Shown in pieces: positions 2,894 through 63,024 of a DNA stretch of 64,000 bases (positions within the stretch are counted from its first letter, which is position 1; each line of letters opens with the position of its first letter). The notes below the pieces were generated by a model that did not search any database, was not told the DNA's origin, and saw nothing but the letters and a program-made list of their open reading frames with translations. Made by a program: the position numbers and the translations under genes. This stretch comes from Amoebophrya sp. A120 (Eukaryota > Protista > Dinoflagellata): assembly GCA_905178155.1 (NCBI GenBank), contig CAJINV010000018.1, forward strand, positions 662,609 to 726,608, written 5' to 3'.

Positions 2894-5800
2894 CTACGCC
2901 TCCAGCTTCGAGTATGAAGAAGTCAAATGGGAGAGCGTCGCCAAGAACTTGGAAATACAAAGAAAGACCATGAACATGACCAACTGCCTCTGGCGCCTCA
3001 CAGCACGAAATCGATGTGAGTATCTTCATCATTTGTCAAATAGAAATACTGACTGTCGTACTTTATTTGCAGGTGAACAAGGACAAGCATCAGCATGCAC
3101 ATACAGTCAATTGGTCTGAAGAGCATTTCCATGCCGACGGTTCTCCCTCCGACTCTTCCATACCGGAACCAGCGCGGCAGTGTGGATGTGTCAGGTTTGA
3201 AATCGTCAAAGTTGAAATAGTTTGTCATGCATAAAACAGATACCAGTCGGAAGCCCACTTATCAAGCGCCGCATGACAAATTTTCCGAGCACCGGAATCC
3301 AATTTGTCATGCTGTTTGGGCACAGAAGACTGCTTTTGTCATGCTCTTTTAGCAGCTCTCTTTCAAACCCTAAATAGGCTCACAATCTGCCTCACTTGCC
3401 ATCCCGGCAAGACAGGCACTCCATGCCTTGCATTTTATGCATGACAAATCATTTCAACTTTGACGATTTCAATCCTGACGCTTCCATAGGCAGTGTGGCC
3501 GGCGTAGTAGTCGCAAGCCTATCCCGATGAAATGAGATAAATGCGTTGTTTTTCTTTCCACGTATGAAGATTTCTATGACTACGCAGCGAGCTTTTCATG
3601 CACGTGCTCAATAAACGACGTTCCTGAGACCACTCTTTCGTCTTTGCGTTGAATCGACACTAAACTTCTACCCTACAAGTACAAGCTCCGACATCGTACT
3701 CCTACTCATGCATCATGCGCATGATGTTGATCGATGACCACATAAAAAAGAATTGCAATTCCTTATTCCATTTTCATCAGGATAGGGTGTCCGGTGCCTT
3801 GATGTCGAAGGTTGTGAAGCTGTGTATAGCCGCTTCAACTCTGGAACATCAATCTGAATCTTATGATCTTTTTGTTTTGTATTTTTACCGAAGCAAGAAA
3901 AAGAATGTTTCGGTCTTGCATACAGGCCAAACAGGGTGGAAAAGCGTAAGCTACTTCTTCTGCAAGGAGCTTTGTATGCGTATCTAAGACTCGGTAGGAT
4001 TGACCATACTTCTTTCAGACAACTTGATACCCAAGGCAGAGATATCGTACTTGTGCAAGTTTCTTGTCATACTGAGAAGACGAGGACCCGTGAGTCGGGG
4101 TCGTCGGCACCACTTCTACCATCCACGACCACATCCGCTGATGAAATGGACCATTTCATCAGATTCAGACTGTTCCAGCTGAGCACGCCGTACTGTAGGA
4201 CGGGTATCCGCACTTTTGGATGTAGGGGACCTGGTGTTGTACTTCTTTGTTCCTCAGAATCAGACAACTACCTTCGATGTCGTTGTGCGTGTTTTCGAAT
4301 AATCTTCCCAGAAAAATTTGCATTTTTAGATCGACGAACAAGTTAGTAGAGCATCTTCTATCACGCTTCCTTCGTCGAAGATGTTGATCAAGTTGAAACA
4401 TAAAGATATTACACATGCAAAAACACATCAAACCTGCGTCTGTTCCCACAAATCCTCCCACTTTTCATGTCGCCCCTTCGATTATGCTACGAAACTCATC
4501 TTCTTGAAATGAGCAGGCTGCCAAGTCAAGACAATATAATACACAAAAAAATCGAGACAAAGTAAATTATAGCGAGGGCAAGTCCAATGCTGCGCCGATC
4601 TTTGGTCCACCTGCTGAAGCTTGACTTGTCTTGACACAAGCTGCACGTTGAACAGCCATCTTCAGGTGGCAGCACGACAAGGACCAGGAACTGATGGATC
4701 ATCATCATACATTCAAGTGGTATCTTACAAGTAACATCAAAGTGGTCGGTTTTCATCTTATGCTAAGAAAACAGCAGCTACGTCGTGTCTGAGAAGATTA
4801 ACTTGTTTCTTTCTATGTCGTATCAAAACTCCGATGCTGGTGAGGTTGCAGTAGGTCAGAATTCCGCCTGGCTTGAGCTTGGACTTGACCTTGCCGATGA
4901 ACTCGAATTGGTGCGCTATCAATCAGAAAAGCGTTTTCGTTACTAGCGGTGTTCTTTTCGCAGATTGCGGTCAGGTCGTGGCATAACTGATTCCATTTTC
5001 CTATCACGACGCAGCAGGCTGTGAATAAATGCAGGCTGCATCGTGCTGTAGATGGACTCTAGTTTTTGGTAATGGTTCTTTTGCTTTTGCATGCGTTTTT
5101 GCATCACAAATTCTGTTCGACGTTATTCAACCTCAGCGTGCACTTTTCTGTGTGATATGCGTGTGCTGCTCCTCGGCATTCAGCGGGTAGGGGTCATACC
5201 TAAATTGTGAATGTGTATGTGATTGAGTTCTTGTTCGCGACGAGGAGCATTAGTACATGCGCTTTTGAAATCTTCGGCAAAACCAAAAGAGCCTGAATGT
5301 TGCTACCATGGGTGAGGTCACGATACGCCGCAACATCAAGAACAAACAAAACAAATCAGTACAGCACTCCGTCCAGGTAGCCTTCGGGCAATTCCGCCAC
5401 TTTGTCTTGCCACAGAACGTATCAAGCGGAGACGTGGTTGTCGAGGCAGCAAGGTTCTTCTCAGGGAAACAATGCGTATCAAGGAAGAGAATAAGAACGT
5501 ACTTAGAACAAAGCGAGTGGTTTTCATGATCATCCTCGTCTTCCGATTGTTCGCAGCGCCAGCCTTTCGACCGAAAATCGTCTTCATCGTTGCATGCAGA
5601 TTTTCTTTCTTTCTTCTGGTTCTGCCTACCCCTACAAAAAAATCGAGCAAAAGGCATGATTCACGGTGCACATATTGCGACGACGTTGGTTCCGACAATT
5701 AAGCACATTTTATTTCCACTTTTTCCTGAAAGAACCGTCACCGTGCAACCCCCACAACTAGTTCTTTGCAGTGCGTAGTCCGTGCAAAAACGTTATCAAA

Positions 5801-7856
5801 TGCAAAAGTGTCTGAGTCTGGAAGAATGCATGTCTGTCATGCTTGTCTGGCATGACTCTTAAATCTGTCATGCACGTTGCCCACGAGCCTCACTTTTCTG
5901 TCATGCTGGGCCAGCAGCACTTGTGGCCTCATCATGATACGCCACCCAGCGTCACAAATTTCCAGACCCAGACACTTTTGCATTTGATAAACGTCACCTT
6001 GTGCGGTTTGTCCTTGGCCCACTCCTGTCCACGCTTGATGACGTCGGCGTTCGCCTCAATTATTATGTGCTCCTCGATGTCGCTATCCCTAGAAAAAAGA
6101 CAATCCCAGTCAGCCAATGTCATACATTTACCACGTTGTACTAAAACATCGAGTTGTAGTACTTGAGTCTGCAGCTTCTGCTTCTGCTTCTGTCTTCATG
6201 CAAAGCCAAATGTACGTGGGTGTAGTGAGTCATATTTTTCTCAGTGGATAGTCGTATCGCTGGACGGCAGAGGCAGAGAGACTGTAATATTTTTACGGTA
6301 ATTTTTTCTAATATCCATTTTCTTTACGTTTTATTTTCATTTTTCGTGTACAACTTACTTAAACCATTCTTTAATATCCACGCAGCGACGACATACAGTT
6401 TCATCCTTCTCCATCTCGTAGTGATTATCGCCACAACAACGGAGCTGCAAGGAAGTCGCTTTCTAACCTTTATTTCAAACTCAAAAAAAAAAAAAACGGA
6501 AAGAGTTGCGATTTGTCCTCTATCATTTCAGCAAATCGCAATCGTCCTTGTGTTAATTTGTACTATGATCGTGCACTGTGCTAACTTGTGCGGGAGGACG
6601 ACTCTCTACAAGTACTTTCTGAAAAAATAAGAAACGCATAGTTCATCTTACCCGAGTCCAAAGCCGACCTCGAGGACTTTTCCGCCCTTCTGTATCACAA
6701 GAAAAAGTGTTAACGTTAACGGAATTTGCGATGCAGGAATGCATCAGAAAAGGTGCCCAAATTTGTATTGCGTAGCATGTATGGAAGGCAAAATGTGTAA
6801 TGCATGACTGCCATCTGTGAAAACCGGTAACGTTAAGACTTTTTTGTTTGATATTCTGCGTGGCCACTTCCGCGAGTTTCTCCATGTACGGTTTTTCTTA
6901 TGACAGTGCACATTATAGCTCCCTCCCTCCCGGCTCATTTGTTGTAGAAGGGCATGAACAGCAGCAATTATAGAAACGCGAACGCTGCCAGCATGGAGTT
7001 TGTGCATGACAAGTTGCTACGCTGCAGACTGTTGAACCACTTGCCCTGTCCTCGGGATTTGTCATACGTACTGTAGAACGGCAACTGCTGAACTTGGGAT
7101 TTTGCATGACAAGTAAAAGCGAGAGGGGGAGTAGTTCTGCACCGGCATATTTCCCACTGCTCCATCACCGGATGTCCGTCGATGAAGAGCACCTCTTATG
7201 GACGTGCAAATCATATGTCTGGGTCTGGAACAAGATGATTGGGGGCGTTGGTCATGCAGCTTTTGCATTTTGATTTTTGCCCGCGATGTCGGTGATGCAT
7301 GCTCTCGTCGCAGTACAGGGTTCGCGGCGAAGAAGTTTGCCAATACCTATCCTACATGGGTGGAGATACCTTGTCCGGATGAAAAAAAATATAATAAACT
7401 GACAGCTTTTTTAGTAGTTGGTGCTCACGCGGCACTTGTACATGTTTCTGCATGATCGAACGTTAGAGTTACCATCACAAGGTCCATCCTTTTTCTTTAT
7501 CTTTCCAGACCCAGGCATATAATTTGCAGTGGATACCTCTCCTCTCCCATCCTCTTCGACGTGATAGTCGGCTTTCAGCCCATTCCAATCGCTATCCTGT
7601 GCAAAAGTCTCGCACTTCTCGTAGTACTTGTAATCGCATTCCTGCAAGACAAGTCTTAATCTCCTTTCGCTTTCCAAGCTATAGCTAAGTCACGTACCTC
7701 TTGCTTGTCATGGGCTACGTACAAGGAGAGCTCTATACTTCTGCAATTACTTCTAGTACCACGCACGAGAGACCACTTTGTTTGTCATTCATAGTCGGCG
7801 TGCTTGCTGTCTTCCTTGAGACCGTGGTACCCGGTTTCAGGAGCGGTGGCCACCAT
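2894..7856 (-). CDS. GAMT: Guanidinoacetate N-methyltransferase (GAMT/RMT2-type SAM methyltransferase), 17 exons, ~240 aa
   Basis: Removing 13 TIR elements (+5 nt each) and 3 GT-AG introns (6282-6651, 5200-5362, 4231-4433) gives MVATAPETG...DWNGLKADY...LFIDGHPVMEQWEKPYMEKLAEVATQKGGKVLEVGFGLGLSASAVQRYDIEEHIIIEANADV...HGLWQD...LDGVLYDPYPLNAEEQHTHQFEFI...LKPGGILTYCNLTSIGVL...QTQVPYIQKCG...PDTCDYY...LVPKLEA*. This is colinear with vertebrate GAMT motifs (PVMERWETPYM, GGRVLEVGFG, HWIIE, YDTYPL, HTHQF, LKPGGVLTYCNLTS). Confidence 0.93.
2913..3162. mobile_element. Degenerate TIR introner, last GAMT intron
   Basis: Ends tatgaagaagtc.../...gactcttccata; flanks tcgag/ccgga are diverged; removal +5 nt gives LVPKLEA*. 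Confidence 0.6.
3181..3488. mobile_element. TIR introner family A (GAMT intron)
   Basis: ~50-bp TIR tgtggatgtgtcaggtttgaaatcgtcaaagttgaaa / tttcaactttgacgatttcaatcctgacgcttccata; TSD ggcag/ggcag. Confidence 0.92.
3520..3784. mobile_element. TIR introner (GAMT intron), TSD fully diverged
   Basis: TIR tatcccgatgaaatg / cattttcatcaggata; flanks aagcc/gggtg; removal +5 nt restores PDT-CDYY. Confidence 0.8.
3825..4192. mobile_element. TIR introner (GAMT intron)
   Basis: Imperfect TIR tatagccgcttcaactctggaac... / ...gttccagctgagcacgccgta; TSD ctgtg/ctgta. Confidence 0.78.
4483..4822. mobile_element. Degenerate TIR introner (GAMT intron)
   Basis: TAT...GTA ends, weak TIR, flanks tcgat/tcaaa; removal +5 nt joins IGVL-KGRHEKWEDLW. 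Confidence 0.7.
4917..5157. mobile_element. TIR introner (GAMT intron)
   Basis: TIR tatcaatcagaaaagcg / cacttttctgtgtgata; TSD tgcgc/tgcgt; interrupts the HTH-QF motif. Confidence 0.87.
5420..5777. mobile_element. Degenerate TIR introner (GAMT intron)
   Basis: TAT...GTA ends; flanks gaacg/gtccg; interrupts HGL-WQD. Confidence 0.75.
5794..5989. mobile_element. TIR introner family D (GAMT intron)
   Basis: 30-bp TIR tatcaaatgcaaaagtgtctgagtctggaa / ttccagacccagacacttttgcatttgata; TSD aacgt/aacgt. Confidence 0.93.
6084..6250. mobile_element. TIR introner (GAMT intron)
   Basis: tatccctagaaaaa / tttttctcagtggata; TSD gtcgc/gtcgt; interrupts QRYD-IEEH. Confidence 0.82.
6693..6853. mobile_element. 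TIR introner (GAMT intron)
   Basis: TIR tatcacaagaaaaagtgttaacgtta / taacgttaagacttttttgtttgata; TSD ttctg/ttctg. Confidence 0.9.
6899..7149. mobile_element. TIR introner (GAMT intron)
   Basis: tatgacagtgca / tgcaccggcata; TSD tttct/tttcc; interrupts QWE-KPYM. Confidence 0.85.
7197..7535. mobile_element. TIR introner family D (GAMT intron; can be read GT-AG)
   Basis: TIR containing gtctgggtctggaa; TSD cctct/cctct. Confidence 0.9.
7593..7793. mobile_element. Degenerate family B-like introner (first GAMT intron)
   Basis: Left end tatcctgtgcaaaagtctcgcact, right end ...cattcata; flanks atcgc/gtcgg; joins KHAD-WNG. Confidence 0.75.
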
Positions 7857-9686
7857 CTTGTCACGTCGTGCTCGTGTTTATGATCTCACTGCAGTAGTAG
7901 AGCGCTGTAGAAATTGAATTCCTTTTTTCTCTCCTGAAAGAAGACAGACGAAGATGCTCGTCACATCATCAGCAGGCTGACCGCGGCGTAGCACAAAGCC
8001 TTCAAGCCGATGAGGTGGATAGCACTAGCTAGTAGTACAGAAGATGAACGAGAAAACAAGTAATAGTATATGCTCAATGCAGAATACTTGCTGGCAGGCT
8101 AGGCTCAGTCCTCGGGTGAAAACAAAGTAACTCCGAGGTTTATTAGGTTACAGAGACTGATAAATCTTCAATGTAGTGGATGTTGACTTTTATTAGCATT
8201 TCATTAGAGTTGTGCGTATATGATCTACAGCTACAGGAGTTTAAACATAATTAATCCCTCTCGCCCTCTGTCTCCACCCTCATCTAATGTTGTGGATAGT
8301 AACAGAGCCAGAGTCCCTCGTCACTCGCTTCTCTCTACTCTATGGAGGTTGTTGATGAGCTCGCAGAAACAAGCGAGGACTGCGAGTGCGCCTACAGATC
8401 ACGACATGCACAGGCTGCAGCAGGACAAGGAAAATCATGATGAGGTTCACTGCATGTGATTCTGATTCTGAACAACTGACAGCGCCAAAATAAGGAAAAA
8501 CGCAAAGACTGTAGAAAATATCGACGTCTGGTTCTTCACCTCCAAGCTCTTCGATTTCGTTGCATTTTTCCATGACATTATCTCTAGCAAGAGGCGCCTG
8601 GTGGTCCCCGCCCCATGCGGCTGCGGGCCACATTCATGCTAGTTGTGGAGGTAATAAACAAAGAAACGAACTGCTTTTGCAGCTCGGTGTTCTTGTTAAG
8701 AATAAACAGACTTGCAGCGAGGTCAAGAACCCCTCGTCGCTCGGTGTTGTCGTCGTTTTGAAATCTAAATCTTCGATATCTCCACTATGTCAAAATATTT
8801 TAGCCCTTAGTCGATTCTTGTCTACGTTGTTTCGTCGTTATTTCTCGTAGTTGGGTTTGCAAGAGAAGATGGAATAAATGCTTAAAATTACAAGCTTTTG
8901 CTTTTTACTGTAGAAAGAAATTATGTCCTCGCTCGCTACTAAATATTTGACTAGAATGAACGTGCTTTCGCTACTCGATTGAGATTCAAATGGGTCGGCG
9001 TCAAAAATTGAAAAAAGCAAAACCAAAATGAACAAAAATGAAAAATGCGTAATTGGTGTATCGTAATGTGTACCTGAATTGTGTAAAAATAAAATGTGAA
9101 TGTGTATGTAATACGGACAACAAAAGTGATCAAATTCAAATTGTGTATGATAGCGTTAAAGTAAGAATGTTATGGTAAATGTTAGAATCGTGATGGGAAA
9201 CAAGAAAAACTCCGAGCGCGGTGGGGGACCATTCACGGCCGAGGGCCACAATTTGATCGTCCACACTACAACTGGAGTACGAGGTGAACGGGTGACGGGG
9301 CGAGGCCCCATGGAATGTTGTTAGATGAGTCTACGTATAAAAAAGTTGTAGTGGTGTTGTAGTTGGACCACCGCGAATTCCTGCGCGCATACAAGCAGCG
9401 CAAGTGTTTGTCTTCGATTCGCACAGAATTATGACTTGTAGAAGATGATAAGAAGTAAACTGGCAGCAAAATAAAACAATTTATGTATGAACAAATAAAT
9501 CGAAGATAGTGCCGATCATACAACAGCTCCTTGGCCACACGGCACCTGGAAGCATCGCGTGCGAGGTGCGGCGGCGCGGACTGCAGAAAGTCACGAGGGA
9601 TATGTTTTTTTGCGATGTTGATTTCCTACTCCTAAGAACTGCCAGTAATGCAATCGCTATCGCAGCACGACCACTGCGCTTTGTAC

Positions 9687-12199
9687 TTATCCCGATGTGG
9701 AGGTTCCTGGCCGGAGCCCTTCGCCCCCGTGGTTGTCGATCTCGATCTGCTCATCGTCCTGCAGGATCATGGCGAAATTCCAATACCGCTGCAGCGTCGC
9801 CCTGACTCGAAACCAAACGCTCTGACGTATCATTTGTAAAAACGTCCCCACCCCAGAGTTGTCATGCAGATGTGCAATGACAGGAACAGTTGTAATGGGC
9901 ATCTCCATGAGAGGAATTTCTAGTCGTGTTTTGGCATTTGTAATGCTGCAACCAGGATAATCAGATGGATTTCTGATGCGTTTGCCCTTGCTAACCTGCA
10001 CTACACTACGGACTGCAACTTGTGATGCATGAGTCCCAAAAATTCCAGGTTTGTGTTGCAAAATCCCCATCTTGTTGACTATGGGGTGGGGACGATTCTA
10101 CTCAGGATATGACGTCCTGCGGTGCTGCTGGTCTCGCAACGCAGCAAGAACGCCTGCAACACAGTATGAAAGCCTCAGGTTGGAAATCCTCAAAGTGAAA
10201 ATAATTTGTAATGCAAAAAAACGACGCCAGTTGGAGCACCATTTATAGTCGGCGCATGACAAAAATTTCCCGGGCACTCAAAACGTGTTTGTCATGCTAG
10301 TTAGGCAAAGTGGTGCCCTTCTCTCATGCTAATCAGCAGCCCAATTCTGAACCCGTAGAAGCATCGTAGTCGGCCTCCAGTGCGTTCTCTGCAATACAGT
10401 CTTTTTGGTGTCGCATTTCATGCATCACAAATTATTGATAATCTGATTCGAACCGAAGCCAATTATTTCCACTTTGAGGATTTCCATTCTGAGGGTGTCA
10501 TACACAGCCTGCTCCTCGTCCTCGTTTTCGGTGTCGCTCGCGGCTCCGTACTCGTAGTGAGTCTCAGTCGGCGGGCCATTTGATGTTCCAGCAGTGGTCC
10601 TCAGGCCGTAGCGACGCAGCTGATCACCTTCTGCATGAAAATGGCCGGCGGCGGCGCCTCCGTGGGGTAGATGATGTTGCGACGCCGGATAACGCTCAAC
10701 AACATCTCCATGCAGATGATCATGCTGGGGATATCCTGTGCAAAAGTATCGCACTCGTACGCGTTTTTATGCATTATAAATGTCTTTACTAAAGCAAATC
10801 CGCATTACTACAAATTGAATTTGTAATGCTAAATGATTTTGTAATGCAATTTACACTAGTACGATACTTTTGCAGTTCATAGAGGAGCATCTTCACCAAC
10901 TCGACCGTACCGGCTGAACAGCAGCGCGCCTTCGTGTAGCGCGACGTTGCGGTCGTGAAGATGCTGAGCATCATAATATCCTCAGTAAAAACGTCCCCCT
11001 GTCAGAGCCAAGATGGGGATTTTGCAACACAAACCTTAGAAGTTTTGGTGGTCACGCATGACAAATTTCAACTCGTACGGTAGTGCAGGTTAGTGTGGAC
11101 AGCGACAGCCGCATTACAAACCCCTTTTATCTTCCTGTTTACAGCATTACAAATTTTAGAACATGATTGGAAATCATGCCTATGATGGATATGCGCATCA
11201 CAAATGTTCCTGTCATTGGAAATCAGCATGACAACTCCGGGGTCGTGGGGACGTCTTTACACAGGGTACATGAGGGGGACCTTCGTCGTCCGATATTTGC
11301 ACCAACGTTTGCTGTTCAGTTTCATCGGGCCCGCTTTGGCTTTGCTCCGGCAGCTCCAGCTGGAGGTGGTGCTGCAGCAATGAATCCCGCTTGTGCTCCT
11401 GGCGAAGATCTGTCTTTCCTTTTCGCGGCATCAGCGATGTCGACCCCGGCTCGTCCTCGGCAACATTGTTTATCATTCTGATCGGCAATAAATCATAAAG
11501 CGATTGACCTTGTTCGCTCTCCTGTCCCGTTCCGCATTCTTGTTGCGCTTCGGGATCAACCACGCGGAGTGGGTGCTGGAGAGCATGATTTTCGTCGCCG
11601 GTGTTTCTGGCGCCCCCGTCGAACAGCAGCCGTATTCTTGTCGGGTGAAAAAGTTTCGCGGCAAAGGAAAATCTGCGCGCTAGCACGGAGGTCCAGGCCG
11701 CCGGGGTCGCTTGCAGGTTCTGCAGTAATATGCAGAAAGATCCTGCTTCTTGTGTGGAAAAAGAAGGGTCTTCAGGATGATCTTCGGCCCGTCCTTGTCC
11801 TTCGCAAGTAGTTATGCCCAGCACAGCGTGTCCGTCTCCAGCTGTTGCGGCAGCGCAATCGCCAGGATTTGTCGCACCTTCGTCGTGTACTGTCAGCCCA
11901 GCCTCAGCATCATACTCATACTTGCTCCGTTCCAGTTGCAGTTGCACTCGCGCGCCCTGCATATCATACCCTTTTCCAGTTGTTTCGCCCCCTTCTTCCT
12001 CGGAACTAGACGTGGAAACGGAGTCCGCGCGGCGTCTTGCCCGGGGAAAATAATCGGTCCGGCCCTCGCCCTCCGCAGACGACGAATTTCTGCTGCCACA
12101 GGTAAAGAACTTGCTGCGGCAAGAATTATTTGAGCCAGCTCGGCGTCTTCTGTTCGGGCTGGCCCAACAGAAACACCGGAGAAAGATGAGGAAGGCCAA
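9687..12199 (-). CDS. Hypothetical protein, multi-exon, 5' end unresolved
   Basis: ORFs 11213-12199, 10425-10754 and 9687-10070 fuse into one stop-free frame (...EGPPHDAQH...EDAPQHDH...EEQAVLQAFLLRCE...GRQSVWFRVRATLQRYWNF...*) when four elements +5 nt are removed. Confidence 0.72.
9828..10109. mobile_element. TIR introner family C
   Basis: TIR tatcatttgtaaaaacgtccccacccc / ggggtggggacgattctactcaggata; TSD tgacg/tgacg. Confidence 0.9.
10165..10502. mobile_element. TIR introner family A
   Basis: TIR tatgaaagcctcaggttggaaatcctcaaagtg / cactttgaggatttccattctgagggtgtcata; TSD cacag/cacag. Confidence 0.92.
10732..10881. mobile_element. TIR introner family B
   Basis: TIR tatcctgtgcaaaagtatcgcact / agtacgatacttttgcagttcata; TSD gggga/gagga. 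Confidence 0.9.
10977..11268. mobile_element. TIR introner family C (opposite orientation to 9828-10109)
   Basis: TIR tatcctcagtaaaaacgtcccc / ggggacgtctttacacagggta; TSD cataa/catga; internal sequence is a reverse-complement homologue of the 9828 copy. Confidence 0.9.
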
Positions 12200-51600: not shown

Positions 51601-52319
51601 GGCCTCTTCATCATTTGGCTGGCGCTTTTTTGTCTTGTGCGTCCTACAACTGTTCCGCGTCCTCGCCTGCGCGAACTACCTTCCGCCCAGGCTTCGGCAG
51701 CCGCCGAAAACGCGGCCATCTTTTTTGTCACGGGAAAATCGCAGTCGCGCCAGCGCACTACCTCGCTGCTTTTATCTCGTGCGTGGCTTTTTTGGGCACA
51801 CTTTTGGGCGCCCGAAAATCGCCAGAACCTAAGGAGCAGGCGGCGGGCGGCCGCTCAGAAGGTGCGCCGGTTTTGCCTCTTTGTGGCCACCCCTTCGCCT
51901 CAGAAGGTGGACACCAGGTCAACTAAAACAAGGCGAAAAGGACCAGCCGCCAATTGCTAGAATGCGAAACGAATCGCCGCAATCGCTGTCGCATCCACTC
52001 CAACTCACATCATTAAAAATAGTTGAGCGGTAGACTGGACGTAAGTAGCGCGCACTTTTTAGTTGTAGAGGCGACATCATTTTCAAAAGGGCAGACACAC
52101 TGACAGCACTTTTTTGAATTTGTTCGTCTAAAAATGCCTTCGCTCGCTACGGCTACTGGGAAGTACTTTTACTTTCTTAGTTACTGTTGCTTCTACACGA
52201 AGTAGAGTTCCCGCACGATAGATAGTAGGTGAAGCAGTTTTCTCCTCCGGGATAGGCAGATGATGGCTTTTGTTTCCGGGAGATGACACCAGCATCGATA
52301 TAATTGTGGATAGATCTTG

Positions 52320-52631
52320 TATGGGAGTGTCAGGTTTGAAATCGACAAAGTTGAAATAATTTGTCATGCTTGCATAAAATGGATGCCAGTTAGACCTGCA
52401 GTTTGTAGTCGGTGCATGACAAATTTTCCCGGTCCTGGAAGCGGGTCTGTCATGCGGTTTAGGGCAAAAGAGCGGCCTTCTCTCATGCTAGTCACCGGCC
52501 CAACTTTTGACCCTTACCAGGACTATAATCTGCCTCCCTTGCGTCCTCTGCAATAGAGTCACTTTTTGCATCGCATTTTATGCATTGCAAGTTATTTCAA
52601 CTTTGTCGATTTCAACTCTGACACATCCATA
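52320..52631. mobile_element. TIR introner family A
   Basis: tatgggagtgtcaggtttgaaatcgacaaagttgaaataa / ttatttcaactttgtcgatttcaactctgacacatccata; TSD tcttg/tcctg; host gene not resolved. Confidence 0.9.
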
Positions 52632-52648: not shown

Positions 52649-52994
52649 TATCAAGTGCAAACCTCTCTCCGGTCTGGAAGGATGCGACAAAGCTGCTCAT
52701 GCTCAGCTAGAATGGCGCCATCTATCAGGTCGTCTGTCATGCACGCTCTTGTTATCCAAGAGCGGTCTTCATCATCTTTTTCTATTACGCTGGAAAAATA
52801 ACTATGGAGGAGGTTGTAATGGAGACATAGAAAACGCATGGTAGTTCATCAAAAACTTGTCCACATGCTTAGCCGCTAGTGGTGGCGTGCTCATATCAAC
52901 ATTGACATTCTCCAACCACCGCTAGCAATGCAAGTAACAGTAAAGTATTTTCAATTTCATCTTCCAGACCCAGACATCATAAGTGCGTTTGATA
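52649..52994. mobile_element. TIR introner family D
   Basis: tatcaagtgc...ggtctggaag / cttccagacccagac...gcgtttgata; TSD cgttg/cgtcg. Confidence 0.8.
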
Positions 52995-55202
52995 CGTCGT
53001 GGATTTATGCAGATGCAAAATGAATTGTCGGTGTCAGGGTTTGGGTTTGCCGGGCTTGTCGAGAAAGAGAAGCCATGGATGCCGTGTCGGAAAAAAGAAC
53101 ACGTAAATCAAGGGTCTAATTCTACTAACTTGTTCCTCTTGTGGCGTCGAGGTCGACATGGTCAAGAAGGATCGATTTTTATGCTTTTTCATATCAGATG
53201 AAAACAGATCCAGAACTCTGTAGCAATTTTCTAGTGTCCGTGCTTCGCAACGGACACAGAGTCACGGTTATTTGCATTTGTTTGTAGACGCCAGAATTCT
53301 GCAGATGCAGAAGGACGGCTTGCATATGCATGTTGCACCAGCAGCTTCAAAAATATCACGATGCAAACCACGCATGCATCTTCCAGGTAGCACATATTTT
53401 TCCTATGTATTAGTAGCACCCTGATACTAGTAGTACAAGTAAGATGGTCACACGACCACAATCGGGTGCTGTGCGCATGACAAAGACAAACGGCTAAACA
53501 GCAATGACTGAGAATAGGATCCATGGTTTTCTTTTCCCGGCGACTCTGACACGAGACAAAATCATCTTTCTTCAGACTGGATAGGCTTTGTCCCGTCACG
53601 AAATGAAATCAAAAAAATGGCATAGTACGGTATAACCTGCTCAGGTGTTACAATCTGCTCAAACGGTAGCAACAGAGTAATGCTAATGCTGTGCCGCAAA
53701 AATAAGTGCATCTGCATCATCTAGCACAGGATTGCGCATGACAAGTTCCGAAGCTGCCCGTTCAGATGAATCTGGCGAATGGAGAGAAAGTCCGTTTAAA
53801 TGAAAAAAAGGATTGCGCATATACAATACAGCCCGTGCTTGCGGATAAAGCTGGCGAAATTTGTACCTATTTTTCATGCGAAAAGCGCAAGGCATCCTTC
53901 CATGTAGTTGTTCCGCATGCTCTCTATGCAAGACAAATTATACAGACTCTGTTTTATTATTGTAATGCTTGAGATGGTAACACTTGTGCGGGTCATATAC
54001 GAGTTGTGTTGAGATGTGCTGCTCGAGTTGTTGAGTAAAAGAAAAGTGTGATTTTTTGCTTCAGGAATATGCGATATCCAAGGAAAAAACTGCGATAGTG
54101 CACCTGCTTTGGTGAGAACGAGAAGAGCATCTATTTGACCTACTGCCAGTCTCTTCTTTTTCTTCACATGCGAATGTGACTTCTGTGACACTTTACAACA
54201 CATTCATGCATCAAGGTAGGTTTAATGTCAATACCACGACGGACAAATTGAAATTGGCATGTACGTTGGCCGCTGTATTAATACGAATACAAATTTGCTT
54301 GCACCACTGCCGTGTGTTTGAATATGCAAGAAGGCTCTCTTGCTCATGTTGTTCTACACCCAGTTACACTTCCACCGTTAGATGATTTCCGTGGATACCA
54401 TGGTGCACAGCTCCCCCTTGACCCTCTCGTTTGTCGTGTTCATTACATTGGCAGGCACGAAGTGTAGATCATCAAATAGACTCAGTAGAACAGAATTGCG
54501 GTGAGAAGTGTAAAATAAATAGCTACACATGAGCCTATTGCTCATAAACTGACGCATAACAAAAGCAAAACAAAGCGGAGGAGTATTCGTCTCTTCCTCT
54601 TGCATACATTTCGATTTTCATACATTAGTTTGCTCTAGTTGCATGACAAAGACAATAAACTGGAGCAGTGAAGAACAAAGGGGGGTGGTGCACTTGGATA
54701 GATAGAAGTTCTTGCATTTGATTTTGATGTGAAGAATGGAAACGGCGTCGAGAACTACCCATCTCGCGCTTGCACTTGCCCCCGCATAGCTCTTGATGCC
54801 GTCGAGCAGGATATTATGGATAAAACAGGAGGCAAGAGCCGCGTGATCTTGTTCGCTAGAAAAACTATAAAAAATCTGTTGAGTTGTGATGCTTGTGAAC
54901 ATATAATCTTGTTTATCAATCTTCTTCTGCTATAATTGCATAGTATTTTGGAATAAGTATAGTGTTGAAATGTGAAAAAGAAAATGGGTTTGGTCTTGAT
55001 AATTTTTGCTTGAATACGATAACGATTTTTTGGCTTGATCAACGATATGCAGTTTCAAAAATTGAAATAAGCACTTCGCGGAAAAAAAAATGTGATGATA
55101 GACCCAGCTGCAGCTCGTGGACCAGTTTTGTGTTGATGGAAATTATCAGTTGGCACCGCCCCCAGTCGCTGCAGTCAGGAGCTGGCGACGATCCTTTTCT
55201 CG

Positions 55203-58200
55203 TCACTCCGCCTGGTTAACCACTCCGCTCTGACTGGAACCCATCGCGCCGCTACCGCCGCCGTCCCCTCGGTTGCTGCGGCTGGCCTTGTCTGGGTTTT
55301 TCGCGATTGGGTCGGTCTTTTTGATCTTCTCCAACCGTCGGTAGACTTCGGTGCTGCCGTATGCAAGAAATGAACTGTGTATAGAAGTTGCGTAACAAAT
55401 CGATCCTGTAGTAAAAAATATATATGCTTCTATATTGAGCAATTCATGCAACAGAGACACACTTGTTGTCCTGCCGTGCTGGCCAGCAGCTCTGGGATCC
55501 TCTTTACATTTTGATTTTGCTTCCACGTTGTACTAGCTGACAGGCTGAAGATTAGATATCATGCGGAACAAGTTCTTTGTGATGCTGCTCTGCTTCTAAG
55601 AAACCTGCGGTAACTACACTGTTTTTCTCGTTGGATATGCTGGGACGGACTTCCTGGTCGAAGCTGAAGCACTGGCCGTGTATACATTGCAAAAGTATCC
55701 TATCGTACTAGTATAAATTGCATTACAAATTTTATCAGAAAGAATTTGTAATGCTAATTCAGGTAAAAAGGTAGGTTTGTCATGCAAGATTGGAATTAGT
55801 ACGAGTACGATAGTTTTGCACAGGATACCGTGTCCTGAGCAACAACGTCCCTACCCCGCCTTGTCATACATATTTGCATGGCGAGGACATCTGTAACGCG
55901 GCTTCGCATGATGAATGGTGCTTTCTAGTGAGTCGCCGTATTTGAAAATCCTTCTGTCTTCATGCGCTAATGCTAAAGCTAACCAGGATAGAAATAAAGT
56001 GGATCATTTATTGTCATAATGCCCTTACTAGACAGGCTAGGCACGAGGACTGTAAAAAAACTTACATCTTCGCCAAACTAACTCCTAAAGCTCTGGAACT
56101 GGAGTTGTCTTGCAGGGTTTTCCTTTCTAGTTTTGCCTCTCTTGCCTGCGGGAGCGGATTATTACTAGTACAAGTACTACCCTTTCGCTATTTACGAGAT
56201 TTGTGTTGCAGAGGTCCCATCATCTTGAATGATGACGCGGGAGTAGGGACGTTTTTCCTCAGGGTAGGCCGTATGGATGTGTCAGGATTGAAATCGACAA
56301 AGTTGAAATAACTTGCAATGCATAAAATGAATGAAAGCTGAGACCCAGTTTTCAAGTGGCGCATGACAAATTTAGGTAGAGCCGGAATCCAGTTTGTCAT
56401 GCTGTTTGCGTAAGAAAGACGCCTTTTGTCATGCTACTTTAGCATCTCAGTTTCTACCCGTCGAGAGGCTTACAATCTGCCTCACTTGCCTACTCTGCAA
56501 GACAGGCACTTTCTGCGTTGCATTTTATGCATGACAAACTATTTCAACTTTGAGCATTTCAAACCTGACGCTTCCATAAGCCGATCAGCGTCTTTACTGC
56601 CTGGATTTCGATGTGATCCGGTGTGGACGGTGGTCGTTTCTGCACGGTCATTATCAAGTGCAAACGTGTCTGGGTCGTCTGGAAGATTCCGAGATTTGTC
56701 ACGCGGTTTTTCCAAGGTCCACCAAGTCTGGAATGCAGGCCCTAGCATCACCGGTAGTTCTGCAGCCCTTTGGTGATGCCTATTCTGCATGACCACAGGA
56801 GATGCCCTCTCAGCATGGCCAGAAGTGGGGACCTTTTGCAAGTCATGCAACACAGATTTTTCTAGCATCTGCAACACGCATCACAAGTTCGCATCCTTCC
56901 AGACACAGACCACACATTCGCAGCATTTGATAGTCATTATGTTCGTTAGCGTCGGCATATCCTTGACACCGTCATAGGGGATCGTGCCGCCAAATATCTC
57001 CGAGTATCGTGAGAAAAAAGTGTCACAGTTACTACTTACATATTGTGAACCGGTTTCAACATCAACATGACGGAAATGCTTGCTGCAAGCCACCTCGCTT
57101 CCTGCGTCTTTTTTTCGCTTCATGACAACGATCTCTAACTCTACGTTGCAGTTTTTTTCTTTGGTCCTGCTGAAGTTGCACCATGCGTACTAACTGTCAC
57201 ACTTTTTTTCTTGAATACACAGAAGATACCTGATGGTCAATAAATTGATCGTGTTCCGACATTGCATTCACCATCGTGCACGACAAAATGAAAAACAAAG
57301 CCCTTAAAAATCCACAATGTCTGCTATCCTTTTTTCACCATGACTACGTGTGCGTGTCGTTCAAGAAAACTTCTACCCGTTTCAAAGTCATCTACTCCTG
57401 GCACTTCTAGTTTTCTTTTACACTATCTAGCCAAAGACGATGATGAAATTACAAATATTATGTACATGACATCGCCCAGACGTCGATTTTTTCTGTGATC
57501 TTGAGCTTCTTATCGAAGAGTTCCGGAGCCATATATCGGGGTGATCCGCCGTTATGCCTTGCCCGCGCGTTGTTTTTGTCGATGTACCTTTGATGGTGTT
57601 CTATGCATCGCAAACAGGTGCAATTGGGTCAGGGTCTGGAAATTAATAATTTGTGTGGCTGATATCAAATTAGAAGCACTGCAATCTTCAAGGACGCAGA
57701 GCAGCTACCGCTCGCACAGAAAACTAGCAGGAGCAGAAGTCTTTCATCAATCTGCATCACAGCTCTTTGGGCTGATGGCCTTCAGATTGTGCATGACAAA
57801 CGACCCAGAGCCAGTAGACAAATTACAATGCATATGTTCAACATGGTGGGGGCAATGTCAAAAATCATGCTCCAGGTCGTGGAGGTTCCAGCCTCTATGA
57901 GAGTGCACAACGGAGCGAGCCGCTTCCCCTCCCCGTCATGTGTATGGCATGCAGAGCTACAGCTAGAAAACAACCCTAACGAACAGCACTGAGGTAGCTG
58001 TGCGCTTTGCAGTCCAGACACGGAGCGCAGTGCGCTCTGCAGTGGCTTCTGTAGGTCGTCCATAGTCTCAGGAAAGAAAGTCATAGTCACAAGGCGAAGG
58101 CAACGGCACAAGCGAAAAAAAAATATCTCTGGCGCATAGCATGCGGATTGGCTCTCCACGTCCTCTGCCGTGCTTTTTCTTTTTTGCGTTTTTCTTTTTA

Positions 58201-61200
58201 CTTTTCGCGTCTGCACTTTTTGCAAAACTTCCTCGGCTCAGAAACCGGCGAAAAAGTGGCCGCTATTACGGTCGCCCAAAATGCTCCGAAACCTCGGCCG
58301 CGCCGTGCGATTTGGCTGTTTCAATTTCGGGCGCGTTTTTTTGGGCGCCTATTTGGGCGACTCAAATCGTCACCAGAATCCCACACGGCGGACGCCTTAG
58401 AAGGGCGCCGCCCTTGCTGGCGCCCCAGCGTCGTTTTATGAAGCGGGGACCGATAGCCATAGCGTCCCCCCCGCCGCGATTTGTCGCCAAAAAAGCCGAA
58501 CAGGCTTGGGCTTGCGCGCTGGGATTTTCTTCATCCTGAGAGACGCTCTTACTTACTTTAGGCTTGCAAACTGCCGGCCATTTTTGGCCATTGATGTCAA
58601 GAAAACTCCCCGGCTATCGAACCGTTCGGTGACCTCGCTGCCTGCTATGATTGATGCATCTTCTCATGCAAAAATCTGTGATCAGGATGCATGCGCATCA
58701 ACACAAAAAGTACTAGCACTAATTTTTGCTGTTACAACACATCTTCAGAGCTGCGTGCTGCAGATTCCTCGCACGCCCCGTTCATCATCTTCTGGAGAAT
58801 ATCACTTTATAGGACGAAATTGAAGCTAAAGGATAGTACTCTGTCAAGCCGAAGTCGCACAGCTTTATGTTGAACTTCAGGTCGAGGACGACATTCAGGC
58901 TCTTCAGGTATCAACTGCAAATATGTAGTCTGGCTCAGGGACAGGGTCTGGACGAACTAGAAATGAGTATAAGCTGTAACTGTATTAAAATGTCGTCCTG
59001 TGAAATAAATTGATGCTCGCACGACTGCAAAAATACGAATACATACAGGGCCAAGCATGACAAGTTACTTTCAGAGCTCCTTGGACATGGTGTATCCTTT
59101 TCCGAATCATGACAAGAAACCAACTGCGTTTCTTGTTTTGCATGCCAAGCTAGAGTAGAGGCTCCTTTCCTGCGTGCCCATGCATCACAGAAGCAGGGGG
59201 CATGACAAAAAATCATGCGTTCTTCCAGCAGACCCAGACATGATATTATTTGCAGTTGATACCAGGTCGCGGTGTACCACAACTGGGTCCCGCGTGTGAA
59301 GATACTCGACGCCCTCGCACAGCTGTAGGAGAAAATACGTCCTTGGTCTTTTTCTCTAGTACTACATTGGAGCAGAAGCAGGTCCTGGCATAGGTGACTT
59401 CCGTCCTACTCGTTACATTACTAAACTCAATTTTCATCTGCAGCTGCACCTGCAGAGCGTACTACTACACTCATGCAGATTCTTGTCATGCGCGACGGAG
59501 TGCAATCTTTAAAAAATGTCGAAGAACTACAGCCGCATGGACATGGTGCAGGAGGGAACACCTTATATCTATTCCGTACTACTCATCTGTACCTGCATGC
59601 TCATGTTCATCGAGTGTCTGGTCGGCAGCTTGACCTTCCGCACGTGGAGGAAATTGTAGAGCGAGCCTGAAAGTAAAGAACATGCATTGCAACACCAAGT
59701 GTCTTTTTGTCATGCTAGAAAGCCAAGAGTGGCGGTGTTGTATGACAACCAACGTGACGAGGAGCATCAAATTCCTCTATCATGCGCATGACAAACCAAA
59801 AAGGAAAAACGTTTTTTTTTCTTTGAAAATGAAATCTCCTGAGATCATCAACAGAAAAATTTCATATTGAACTACTGTAGTACCGTTCGGCATGTATTCT
59901 GTGATAAAGCAGAGATGCGGGTGCTCGAAGCAGGCTCCCAGAAATCGCACAAGCCTCTTGTGGTTCAGGTGTCGAAAGGATTCGATCTCCTTTTTGAGTT
60001 CGTTTATCGCGTGGGAGTCGTGCTGCGCTTTCTGCGGGTCACGGTATCGGATTGCAAAACTCCCACCTGCCCTTATTTCTTGGGGTGCATGAAGAACTAC
60101 AGCAACGCAAGTAGTGTCACAATAAATCCGGCTTTCACATGACGAATCCATACACAATAAACTTCTGTATTTTAGTGCAGTTTTTCTTTGAGCTTCGTGA
60201 TGAACTTCGACTGCTAATCATGCAAGACATGCAAAGGACGAGTGGAGGACGGGACTTGGTATACAAGAACTGCAGCACAAACAATACATGAGGGAGACGG
60301 GGAGTTGTGTACTCTCCTACCCGGTACAGTGCTTTTATCGCTACCTCCTGTCCTTTCCACTTGCCCTTAAAAACCTTGATAATTTTATTGATATAGGTAA
60401 AGCTGCATTTCATAGCAACATGAACATACAACGCGTGCGACCAAAACCATTACAAAATTTTCAGGTTGACAACATATTGAAATTCCTTTTCGCATGAAAA
60501 ACCTCGACAGATGAAAGGCGTTTTTTCGAAGAAAAACTCGCAGTCTTCGTACTAGCAGTAAGTATGAAAGTACACAACTCCCCCTCCCCCTCTCTGAGCA
60601 GATGAAACACAAGCGAAAATGGCGGATGAGAATGAAATGCAGCTTTTGCGTGACAAACTCGCAGCCGGCCACTCAAGTGCTGTTTTGGCCGCTTCATGCG
60701 CAAACTGTCATGCAAGCAGTGGTAAGAGAAAATGAAAGAGGGTATTTTGCATGATAAAGAAAGGGGTCGGGGTGGAGGTGTTGTTCACTCTCATAAATAC
60801 GGCATTCTCTTACCTGTCCAAATTCCCCGTTCCCGAGTGTCTGATCTACATTGAGGTCTGCCCATTCGATTTCGGGAATGTCGCCGGCTACGCTTCTTCG
60901 CCCATTTGGTATTGCGCCCTTGATCCCACCGCCACCTTGGTTGTGCATTTGATTGTTATTGTTTCCTGCGTTGCTCATGCCACCTGGTGCCCCGTTTGCT
61001 GGCCCATTTTGCCACAGTCTTGGCGTCGCGATCTCGGGGTAGGGCACGGACAACTGTCGCGCCACCATGTTTGGCCCCGCCGCTGCAGGTCCGGCGCCCG
61101 CCGTCCCTACAGGGTTATTTATCTGCTGCACTGCAGGGTTATTTGCGTTACTGTAGTAGTCGTGTGGCTTGCTGCCGTGGTACTGTGGGTTTTGTCCATC

Positions 61201-61499
61201 TTGCTGCTGTATCCTGTGCAAAAGTATCGTACTCATACTAATTGCGGATATGCATGACAAATCCAACTTCCTACCTGAAATAGCATGACAAATTGCATTT
61301 CTGTTCTTGGAAAAATTTGTAATGCAATTCATACTACTACGATGCTTTTGCAGTGCATATGCTGGGGGAGCATGTTGTAGCTAGGATTTTTGTTAAAGGG
61401 TACTGATCCTGGCGGTGCGACGGCTGCGCCCGCAGCTCCACCGCCGTTGAGATGCACTCCTGATTGTCTTGCCATGTTGCTGTAATTGTGGTGGTCCAT
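55203..61499 (-). CDS. TKL-family (MLK/Raf-like) protein kinase with N/Q/G-rich N-terminus, multi-exon
   Basis: Reconstructed exons: EIEWADL...LGNGEFGQ/VFKGKWKGQEVAIK...EIESFRHLNHKRLVRFLGAC...ITEYMPNG/SLYNFLH...EGVEYLH...VVHRDL/KSLNVVLD...IKLCDFGLTE...GSPRYMAPELF...KIDVWAM...EIFGGTIPY...LIG/QCFSFDQEVRPS...*. The activation-loop exon is tentative. Confidence 0.9.
55360..55637. mobile_element. Degenerate TIR introner (kinase intron)
   Basis: TAT...ATA ends; TSD tgccg/tgctg; joins RPS-STEVYRRL. Confidence 0.72.
55681..55827. mobile_element. TIR introner family B, inserted into the terminus of the adjacent family C copy
   Basis: tatacattgcaaaagtatc / gatagttttgcacaggata; TSD ccgtg/ccgtg. Confidence 0.9.
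55831..56266. mobile_element. TIR introner family C-like (middle of the triple stack)
   Basis: tgtcctgagcaacaacgtccctaccccgc / gcgggagtagggacgtttttcctcagggta; TSD ggccg at 55674-55678 and 56267-56271. Confidence 0.82.
56272..56578. mobile_element. TIR introner family A (inserted at the TSD of the family C copy)
   Basis: ~50-bp TIR, highly similar to 3181-3488; TSD ggccg/agccg. Confidence 0.92.
56652..56932. mobile_element. TIR introner family D-like (kinase intron)
   Basis: tatcaagtgc...gtctggaag / cttccagac...gcatttgata; TSD gtcat/gtcat. Confidence 0.85.
57005..57217. mobile_element. TIR introner (kinase intron)
   Basis: tatcgtgagaaaaaagtgtcacagtta / taactgtcacactttttttcttgaata; flanks ccgag/cacag. 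Confidence 0.83.
57553..58138. mobile_element. Tentative degenerate or compound introner before GSPRY
   Basis: Left end tatgcc abuts the GSPRY exon; the right end ...gcgcata is a best guess (flanks gccgt/gcatg). Confidence 0.4.
58909..59261. mobile_element. TIR introner family D splitting the kinase catalytic loop HRDL|K
   Basis: tatcaactgcaaata / tatttgcagttgata; TSD tcagg/ccagg. Confidence 0.9.
60045..60319. mobile_element. Degenerate TIR introner (kinase intron)
   Basis: tatcggattgcaaaactccc / gggagttgtgtactctccta; TSD cacgg/cccgg; joins ALYR-DPQK. Confidence 0.72.
61210..61359. mobile_element. TIR introner family B (kinase first intron)
   Basis: tatcctgtgcaaaagtatcgta / tacgatgcttttgcagtgcata; TSD tgctg/tgctg; joins MLPQ-QQDG in frame. 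Confidence 0.92.
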
Positions 61500-62415
61500 T
61501 CTGGTACTTGAGCTCTGTGCTGGCGAATAGCCAACCCGCGTGGACAGGGCACTCATGCGGGCTGACGGACGAAGAAAATCACGTGGGTCCTCGTGGTTCT
61601 CGACGCGGCTACAGCTTCCTGGTGTTTGAAAAAGGACTTGTTCGCAGGACGAGAAAAAGTTTCTGTGGCGTGATGAAGTCTCGTCATGTGCTGGAGAAAG
61701 TGAAAGATGACGGCATCAAGGAAAACATAAGAAAGCGATAAATAAAGTAGAAGCATGTAGATTTTCAACCATCATGTCTGATATTCCCGTTGGCCATGAC
61801 ATCTCTACAACAAAATTGTGTTCAAGATAACATGCAAGCAAGCATGTCGGCTCTACTTCGTTCCGAGTCGTGTACTTGTGTACTAGTACTACTTCATTCT
61901 TTCCCGCCGTGTTTTTGTTTCTGCAGGTGTTTCTGCAGGTATTGAAATGATTTTCCTTGTTCATGCTTCTTGCTTTCTACGTTGACACTTTTTTTCAAAC
62001 GATACAGTTCTTGGTTTTGGACTTGATTTTTTCTTCCACGAAGGATAATTCCGGTTCCACCGCTGCGTCCAGGAGTACGCTGAACTGAAACGCCAAGCTT
62101 GGGATTCTTCACCAGGAAAGCGGACCAAGAAGAGCAACTACGCTTTCTTTTACAGGAGGCTATGGAGGTGGCGCTGCTCGCTTTTCTACTAGTTCGTCCG
62201 TTTAATACTCCCGTAGTGCAACTTCTTGATGATGAGCAGCAGCTCCGGGTTGAAGTTGATTTCCACCAGGCCGCGCAGATGAGCCAGGCTTCCGTGGCCT
62301 CGTCCGCCTGTCGATCGCGGTATTCTGCTGCGCAAGAAGCTTGAGCACGAAAATTCCACCAGATGTTGTGCTCTTCTGTCGTCCGCTCGTGAACGACGAC
62401 CAGCAACGGAAGGTC

Positions 62416-62838: not shown

Positions 62839-63024
62839 TATCCTGTGCAAAAGTATCGCAATGATCGTCCTAATCGCAATCATGCAACACAAATGTCACT
62901 CATCTTTAGCTAAATCGCCCATGACAAATGTGACAAATTCCATTTGTCATCAACATGCTGAGCTAAAGATTTGCATTCTGTATATTTTTACCTACATACT
63001 AATCCGATACTTTTCCAATTCATA
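62839..63024. mobile_element. TIR introner family B
   Basis: tatcctgtgcaaaagtatcg / cgatacttttccaattcata; flanks gcaag/cgaag. Confidence 0.82.

What the first reader, a model, noticed from the sequence alone, without database searches (positions are those of the whole stretch)
2894..63024. Genome-wide system of TAY...RTA, 5-bp-TSD transposons acting as non-GT-AG introns (rule: remove element + 5 nt)
Seen: about 35 elements of at least 4 internally different families share TAY...RTA ends, TIRs and a 5-bp flanking duplication. In every case where the host protein is recognisable, deleting element+5 nt restores frame and conserved motifs (13 in GAMT, about 9 in the kinase). For most, no placement of the junction within the TSD gives GT-AG (e.g. 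TSDs tcctc, ctgcc, acgtt on the coding strand). Established: repeated non-canonical 'introner' introns with inverted and direct repeats have been reported in Amoebophrya genomes, with the excision mechanism unresolved. Inference: the shared termini and fixed TSD length point to one transposase family and one dedicated removal mechanism.
Basis: partly seen in the sequence, partly recalled or inferred. Interest (0 to 1): 0.93.

Follow-up and report, generated by a model that had tools for sequence, protein, structure and literature searches.

The report
Fixed cut rule for parasite introners
These are the already published jumping-DNA introns of the marine parasite Amoebophrya, but their decayed flanking repeats show that each is cut out of the transcript at one fixed offset from its ends without the usual GT-AG signals, likely by a relaxed spliceosome that measures from an adenosine near the element's end.

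Summary
I count 44 elements with inverted ends and a 5-bp duplication, 13 in GAMT and 9 in the kinase exons. Transcript contigs skip exactly element+5 nt (20 seen as joints, 9 inferred). DNA-like contigs keep them. They are the introners of Amoebophrya A120 (Farhat 2021), and a 5-bp duplication with TA/TA ends is already listed for one family (Gozashti 2025). The elements are therefore known.

What I did not find in print is the cut site, which Farhat call variable or unknown. All 22 junctions with imperfect duplications share one position: the intron starts 1 nt before the element and ends 4 nt after it (exon|N-TAT...ATA-NNNN|exon). Kinase orthologs give the same answer without RNA. Intron +2 T, +3 A and -7 A are constant in the window, and end pairing is weak in 11 of 28 spliced copies.

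Best guess (0.55): a spliceosome that branches at -7 A and cuts at a fixed distance with no AG. A Euglena-like dedicated machinery is the main rival. No transposase was found. The scan noted a similar single case in Prorocentrum (not checked).

The parts
2300..7860 (-). GAMT gene with 3' UTR; 238-aa ORF after removing 13 elements and 3 GT-AG introns (4231-4433, 5200-5362, 6282-6651). Lower limit is the edge of the stretch laid.
2913..3162 (-). element in GAMT; duplication TCCGG/CTCGA; cut position 2-4
   Evidence: joint
3181..3488 (-). element in GAMT, family F1; perfect CTGCC; 3' end ACA
   Evidence: joint
3520..3784 (-). element in GAMT; CACCC/GGCTT; cut exactly at 4
   Evidence: joint with no shared letters
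3825..4192 (-). element in GAMT; cut 1-5
4483..4822 (-). element in GAMT; cut 3-5; ends not predicted to pair
4917..5157 (-). element in GAMT; cut 1-5
5420..5777 (-). element in GAMT; cut 4-5; also seen retained at low depth
5794..5989 (-). element in GAMT; perfect ACGTT; near-perfect inverted ends
6084..6250 (-). element in GAMT; cut 1-5
6693..6853 (-). element in GAMT; perfect CAGAA
6899..7149 (-). element in GAMT; cut 1-5 (cut 0 makes a stop)
7197..7535 (-). element in GAMT; perfect AGAGG; GT-AG exactly at cut 4
7593..7793 (-). element in GAMT; cut 1-4
9828..10109 (-). element, family F3; not tested with RNA; strand inferred
10165..10502 (-). element, family F1; not tested with RNA
10732..10881 (-). 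element, family F2; TCCTC/TCCCC; not tested with RNA
10977..11268 (-). element, family F3; not tested with RNA
22734..23003 (-). element; not tested with RNA
41668..41892 (-). element (a duplicate copy ends at 42770); not tested with RNA
43472..43626 (-). element, family F2; not tested with RNA
47796..48075 (-). element; no joint shown; strand assumed
48105..48489 (-). element; no joint shown; strand assumed
49579..49948 (-). element in non-coding transcript (likely kinase 3' UTR); no duplication left; 3' end ATC; cut exactly 4
50010..50258 (-). element, UTR; 3' end ATG; cut 3-5
50363..50671 (-). element, UTR; cut 4-5
50905..52254 (-). 1350-nt element, UTR; cut exactly 4; no Pfam hit in its two longest frames
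52320..52631 (-). element, family F1, UTR; cut 3-5 (from a loose end)
52649..52994 (-). element, UTR; cut 2-5 (from a loose end)
53006..53583 (-). element, UTR; cut 3-5 (from a loose end)
53631..53997 (-). element, UTR; cut 1-5
54068..54700 (-). element, UTR; cut exactly 4; ends not predicted to pair
55203..61556 (-). protein kinase gene, 484 aa; 9 exonic elements and 5 GT-AG introns (57230-57465, 57588-58839, 59323-59592, 59667-59883, 60375-60813)
55360..55637 (-). element in kinase; ortholog residue needs cut 2 or more
55681..55827 (-). element, family F2, inserted across the 3' splice site of 55831-56266
55831..56266 (-). element whose duplication CGGCC is complete only after 55681-55827 is out; abuts 56272-56578 with no exon between at cut 4
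56272..56578 (-). element, family F1; cut 0-4 (from a contig piece end)
56652..56932 (-). element in kinase; perfect duplication
57005..57217 (-). element in kinase; cut 4-5 by RNA and by ortholog motif IFCEI
57602..57834 (-). element inside the canonical intron 57588-58839
58909..59261 (-). element in the HRDLK codons; ortholog needs cut 4 or less
60045..60319 (-). element in kinase; 5' end TAG; CCGGG/CCGTG
61714..62004 (-). element upstream of the kinase start; 3' end ATG; cut 3-4
62839..63024 (-). element upstream of the kinase start; CTTCG/CTTGC; cut exactly 4 (from a contig piece end)

Best explanation
The elements are non-autonomous inverted-repeat transposons with a 5-bp target duplication that are cut from the transcript at one fixed position, 1 nt before and 4 nt after the element, likely by the cell's U2/U5/U6 spliceosome using the element's first bases as a relaxed donor (N-U-A) and a predicted branch adenosine at -7 from which the 3' cut is measured without an AG. 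Shown: skip of element+5 nt, the fixed cut, constant +2 T, +3 A, -7 A in the window. Because the ends are near-symmetric, either orientation supplies the signals and any exonic target is restored letter for letter, which would let the family spread without harm. Inferred: that the spliceosome does it, that -7 A is the branch point, that end pairing is dispensable, and that one integrase-like (Ginger/IS3EU-type) transposase mobilised all families.
For: Cut: 16 of 16 joints with imperfect duplications allow position 4 and no other position is shared (0 of 200000 random draws; bound 4e-6); 6 more from loose ends and piece ends agree; 5 are exact. Only position 4 gives the 484-aa kinase equal to the annotated protein, and 5 other relatives carry IFCEI, HRDLKS and RPSS, which together need position 4. 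15 junctions exclude the mirror position 1 and none excludes 4, while families occur in both orientations, so the cut follows transcription. RNA level: the same contigs skip 3 GT-AG introns, and low-depth contigs retain one element beside a removed one; DNA-like run X1 runs through the elements. Signals: +2 T, +3 A, -7 A in 43 of 43; all 12 departures from TAT..ATA in the window avoid them; in 288 strand-called copies from another assembly 17 of 22 departures fall on the predicted side (p=0.017) and +2 T never changes. Pairing looks dispensable: G-U 42 against A-C 43 on the transcript, and end pairing under 0.2 in 11 of 28 RNA-seen copies folded. Farhat Table S4: all 9 top A120 sites start xT, all 9 A25 sites TT; nearly all spliceosomal proteins and U2, U4, U5, U6 were found, U1 was not. 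Fixed branch-to-AG distances exist in Yarrowia, Trichomonas and Giardia; U+2 pairs with U6 A51 and Slu7 is dispensable under nine nucleotides.
Against: No lariat or knock-down evidence. The yeast P-complex docks the 3' site through G+1, A-2 and G-1, none of which is kept here. A G+1/G-1 coupling seen in the window (7 of 12 against 3 of 31) failed in the larger set (15 of 75 against 67 of 213). The bases around -7 A are a poor branch consensus, and 17 of the 28 RNA-seen copies folded keep some end pairing that could bury it. In the replication set -7 A is changed in 2 of 288 and +3 A in 3 of 288, the ORF-based strand call gave only 14 of 19 (p=0.06), and the two strand calls disagree in 18 of 189. 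Some TAC ends may be inherited within families, so counts are not independent. All RNA-tested genes lie on one strand; the strand of the 9 downstream UTR junctions is inferred; runs X3-X6 are one sample and only guessed to be RNA.
Confidence: 0.55

Rival explanations
1. A dedicated, non-spliceosomal cut-and-join machinery (as proposed for Euglena nonconventional introns) binds the element ends or their stem and cuts at a fixed offset of 1 and 4 nt.
For: None of G+1, A-2, G-1 is kept and no +1/-1 coupling replicates. Euglena introns also have paired motifs at fixed offsets, and circles without a lariat are reported (passages). U1 was not detected in A120. Own-end complementarity exceeds other-end complementarity even in old copies (9.7 against 7.6 of 16).
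Against: Departures break terminal pairs without compensation and always spare +2 T; no G-U bias; 11 of 28 spliced copies have weak predicted pairing. The kept bases are those the spliceosome reads at the donor.
Confidence: 0.3
2. The spliceosome removes them, but uses an internal branch site while the end-to-end stem positions the two cuts (close to Farhat's hairpin model).
For: Most copies can pair their ends; YTRAY occurs on the sense strand in 35 of 43.
Against: No strand bias of branch-like words inside elements (CTRAY 37 sense, 40 antisense); does not explain the constant -7 A or splicing of copies without a stem.
Confidence: 0.12
3. The skips are not splicing: either DNA excision in some life stage, or reverse-transcriptase jumps across hairpins between direct repeats.
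For: Runs X3-X6 are only guessed to be RNA; X1 may be the window's own source and one stage; hairpins with direct repeats are a known cause of cDNA jumps (own knowledge).
Against: Four joints have no shared letters on the two sides; skipped forms dominate (for example 572 against 12.5, and 266-398 against 11); the same contigs lack GT-AG introns; orthologs need the same cut; reversal of a 5-nt staggered insertion would give position 0 or 5 and no dependence on transcript direction (inference).
Confidence: 0.03

Closest known systems
Introner elements of Amoebophrya sp. A120 (Farhat et al. 2021, PMC7789003; Gozashti et al. 2025, PMC12130899)
   Same: Inverted ends starting TAT, seven variable bases, then an A run; short direct repeats; RNA-supported non-GT-AG removal; lengths of 150-350 nt; the window's kinase equals a protein named A120.
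   Different: Those papers give repeats of 3-5 nt (2-6 in automated calls) and call the splice position variable or unknown. Here the repeat is 5 bp throughout and the cut is fixed.
Euglena nonconventional introns (Nomura et al. 2025, PMC12501133)
   Same: Transposon-like ends, slidable boundaries, rule found from non-slidable junctions, fixed offsets of end motifs.
   Different: Signature N3CDG...CHG N5-6|R with required pairing; here +2 T, +3 A, -7 A, and pairing looks dispensable.
Fritillaria non-canonical introns (PMC13326754, PMC11282704)
   Same: Transposon-derived non-GT-AG introns handled by a U2-type spliceosome.
   Different: Preferred ends AG-AC/AG-AT and a conserved U1; here both terminal bases are free and U1 was not detected.
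Micromonas and Aureococcus introners (as reviewed in PMC11282704)
   Same: MITE-like elements whose splice sites use the target duplication so that the exon is restored.
   Different: They need a canonical GT/GC or AG in the element or duplication; these need neither.
IS3EU/GingerRoot and Ginger DNA transposons (PMC10045372)
   Same: TA..TA termini; A120 family 38 is listed as Ginger-like, 5-bp TSD, TA/TA termini.
   Different: IS3EU/GingerRoot usually make 6-bp duplications; Ginger elements are recalled to start TGT; no transposase is at hand here.

Membership tests
Amoebophrya A120 introner elements | Inverted ends starting TAT, seven variable bases, A run | tested here: met
Amoebophrya A120 introner elements | Direct repeat of 3-5 nt at the boundaries | tested here: met
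   5 bp
Amoebophrya A120 introner elements | Removed from transcripts, mostly non-GT-AG | tested here: met
Amoebophrya A120 introner elements | Repeated families, host lineage Amoebophrya | tested here: met
   5 multi-copy groups in the window; same families in 152 metagenome loci; kinase identity
U2-type spliceosomal intron | GT/GC at the 5' end and AG at the 3' end | tested here: not met
   1 of 43; 4 of 288
U2-type spliceosomal intron | U at +2 and purine at +3 | tested here: met
   43 of 43; +2 T in 288 of 288, +3 purine in 287 of 288
U2-type spliceosomal intron | Lariat with a branch adenosine; dependence on U2/U5/U6 | not testable with these tools
   constant -7 A is only a hint
Euglena-type nonconventional intron | N3CDG...CHG N5-6|R signature | tested here: not met
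   position counts
Euglena-type nonconventional intron | End pairing required | tested here: inconclusive
   predicted pairing weak in 11 of 28 spliced copies; no G-U bias; prediction only
IS3EU/GingerRoot transposons | TA..TA termini | tested here: met
IS3EU/GingerRoot transposons | Usually 6-bp target duplication | tested here: not met
   6-bp identity 0.24 and 0.22
IS3EU/GingerRoot transposons | Cognate integrase-like DDE transposase | tested here: inconclusive
   none in 15 window ORFs or 51 of 196 locus ORFs scanned; no whole genome was held

The most novel reading that the evidence does not exclude
Amoebophrya A120 runs a ruler-type splicing code: the spliceosome reads only U+2/A+3 and one adenosine at -7, both carried by the transposon ends, and cuts the 3' site by distance with no AG and no G+1. 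Tens of thousands of introns would be removed this way, including nested ones and pairs with no exon between them, and a transposon with such ends would be harmless at any exonic target in either orientation.
Probability: 0.5. Interest if true: 0.82.

Novelty: already known. Interest (0 to 1): 0.6.

Why it matters
The elements are published, but how more than 60% of this parasite's introns are removed has been open since 2021, and the boundary was called unknown. A fixed cut turns that into direct tests (branch mapping at -7, three point mutations) and would let the genome be re-annotated by rule. If the spliceosome does it, it would be a natural case in which the terminal G+1, A-2 and G-1 are all dispensable at genome scale. 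If it does not, a second nuclear intron-removal machinery exists outside euglenids.

Tried and rejected
No whole genome was held, so 'genome-wide' rests on 152 loci of one metagenome assembly picked for one end motif and on the papers. G+1/G-1 coupling: p=0.002 in the window, not replicated; rejected. A +1 cut making 'ATA-G' an acceptor: considered, excluded by 15 junctions. A plus-strand gene at 2700-3900: rejected, the stretch is the GAMT 3' end. Candidates 3674-3826 and 3975-4192 were wrong starts; the RNA joint gives 3825-4192. Stop-codon test on 45 one-mismatch copies in the loci: one event (L041) that looked against position 4, but the frame ran through undetected elements and another frame is open; inconclusive. 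Transposase search: nothing in Pfam; the 415-aa ORF inside a 2459-nt element of L060 has no family, no homolog but itself and no Atlas hit. No Rfam match in the window. Earlier-findings look-ups by sequence and by genome were empty.

Full report
Observation. A strict scan for TAY..RTA, a perfect 5-bp repeat and complementary ends gave 12 hits against 0.1 in shuffles. A scan allowing up to two mismatches gave 34 against 1-2. With a terminal weight matrix and RNA joints I curated 43 elements and added 60045-60319 from the protein alignment. Mean flank identity peaks at 5 bp (0.72; others 0.23-0.35), though only 14 of 43 repeats are perfect. BLAST groups 15 of the 43 into five families; the rest are single. 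An internal word, TGTVATGC, occurs in 27 of 43, at 4.7 per kb inside and 0.26 outside.

Host. The best hit of a kinase exon is a protein named Amoebophrya sp. A120, with an A25 ortholog close behind. The spliced gene equals that protein at 484 of 484 residues. Farhat 2021 (PMC7789003; I read the abstract, sections 10, 11, 12 and 16, further passages, supplement parts 1 and 4 and passages of the rest; no figures) describe A120 introners with ends starting TAT, seven variable bases and an A run, direct repeats of 3-5 nt, and 5-bp repeats in the legend of Fig. S19. Their Fig. [quoted passage not shown] Gozashti 2025 (PMC12130899; passages, and 38 of 58 A120 rows of the family table) list automated repeat lengths of 2-6 with mixed splice sites, and family 38 as Ginger-like with a 5-bp TSD and TA/TA termini. 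So the elements, the repeat and the non-canonical removal are known.

Removal. Four contig runs of one sample, guessed to be RNA, give one GAMT transcript with 14 joint rows covering 13 elements and 3 GT-AG introns; the product is a 238-aa GAMT-like ORF. In 45500-64000 only 15 of 230 joint rows were shown; six are element skips in X3 with zero depth in X1 and X7, and one more appears in table 5c. Nine further skips are inferred from a loose end, piece ends and exact length sums of 451 and 501 nt. X1, which looks like DNA and may be the window's source, runs unbroken through 12 elements. Low-depth contigs retain one element while the neighbour is gone (5386-5793 at depth 6-11 against 170-340), as expected of partly processed RNA. 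No DNA run was laid on GAMT.

The cut. Where the two repeat copies differ, the transcript shows which bases stay. Of 20 joints, 16 are informative and all allow keeping four bases of the upstream copy and the last base of the downstream copy; no other position is shared. Six inferred junctions agree. Five are exact: 3520-3784, 49579-49948, 50905-52254, 54068-54700, 62839-63024. Coding junctions of GAMT and the kinase give position 4 without the UTR cases. Independently of RNA, relatives P0004, P0006, P0008, P0009 and P0012 have IFCEI, HRDLKS and RPSS; positions 0-3 change C377, position 5 changes K312 and truncates the frame (the five canonical introns were chosen among GT-AG options to fit P0003). 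The intron is thus N-TAT...ATA-NNNN. Fifteen junctions exclude the mirror position, and families lie in both orientations, so the rule follows transcription. All tested genes are on the minus strand. The downstream non-coding transcript is taken as kinase 3' UTR because one contig spans the stop codon and ends at the next joint; that is an inference.

Signals. At this cut +1 and -1 to -4 are free, while +2 T, +3 A and -7 A hold in 43 of 43. All 12 departures from TAT..ATA in the window lie at +4, -5 or -6. One end motif found 152 loci in a metagenome assembly. They share the families but no unique sequence with the window and yield 347 copies against 0 in 366 kb of shuffles. Removing element+5 (or +2, +8) leaves long frames on both sides in 154 of 288, other frames in 65-78. 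With strand called from flanks alone, 17 of 22 departures are on the predicted side; the six first-base changes are all on the 3' arm; two break -7 A and three break +3 A; the ORF-based call gives 14 of 19. A +1/-1 coupling did not replicate. End pairing shows no G-U bias and is weak in 11 of 28 RNA-seen copies (the 1350-nt copy was not folded). Farhat's Table S4 fits: all nine leading A120 sites start xT, all nine A25 sites TT.

Mechanism. U+2 is read by U6, and short branch-to-3'-site distances work without Slu7 (10.1101/212811, passages); fixed distances occur in Yarrowia, Trichomonas and Giardia (PMC2483917, passages). I therefore favour a spliceosome that branches at -7 A and measures the 3' cut (0.55). 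Against it, the same structure relies on G+1, A-2 and G-1, and the -7 context is weak. A dedicated machinery as suggested for Euglena (PMC12501133, passages and section 5; PMC11282704, passages) gets 0.30, a stem-guided spliceosome 0.12, artefact or DNA excision 0.03. The cut rule itself I put near 0.95. One cluster tests the order: 55681-55827 sits across the 3' cut of 55831-56266, which in turn abuts 56272-56578 with no exon; a contig of depth 14 covers only the middle element, which fits inside-out removal (inferred, flanks not shown).

Mobiliser. TA..TA ends match IS3EU/GingerRoot, whose repeats are usually 6 bp (PMC10045372, passages). No transposase was found. One integrase-like enzyme is a lead only.

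Novelty. I found no statement of a fixed cut or branch position in the searches (listings; PMC12005148 and PMC13326754 as passages). Figures of Farhat (Fig. 3, S19-S25), 20 A120 rows and files 13-14 of Gozashti, and Roy et al. 2023 (listing of the preprint only) were not seen and may bear on this. Verdict: known elements, with a new and testable splice rule; interest 0.6.

Noticed in passing
window 55681-56578: Three elements in a row: one inserted across another's 3' cut, and two sharing one target copy so that no exon lies between them. Implies ordered, recursive removal.
   Followed up: partly
window 3166-3175, 5779-5787, 57219-57229: Micro-exons of about 9-11 nt between elements or between an element and a canonical intron, seen as letters between joints.
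   Followed up: partly
window 49400-55200: Long non-coding transcript, likely kinase 3' UTR, with nine elements removed although no reading frame depends on it.
   Followed up: partly
window 24232-27471 (-): 1079-aa ORF with a reverse transcriptase domain (RVT_1), LINE-like.
   Followed up: partly
window 18435-20951, 32298-35948, 36204-40526 (-): Long uninterrupted ORFs (838, 1216, 1440 aa) in an element-poor stretch; only a weak kinase match in the last.
   Followed up: partly
window 3017-3072 (+): A GT..AG segment with a branch-like word lies antisense inside element 2913-3162; may be captured sequence.
   Followed up: no
window 41120-42842 and 43049-43473: Tandem duplications (about 82% identical), the first including an element.
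   Followed up: no
window 44300-46400: Satellite-like and inverted repeats with raised depth in the DNA-like run.
   Followed up: no
window 51100-52000 and 58100-58600: GC-rich stretches resembling intergenic DNA inside the 1350-nt element and inside a 1252-nt canonical intron.
   Followed up: no
L060 202-2660: 2459-nt element with matching ends and 5-bp repeat carrying a 415-aa orphan ORF; no family or homolog found.
   Followed up: partly
window 62427-62530: Raw RNA run X9 maps only here, at 90-95% identity, suggesting a related family F1 element in another strain.
   Followed up: no
window 60563-60795, 21413-21802, 36161-36246: Further element-like ends, decayed or inside introns, not included in the 44.
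   Followed up: no
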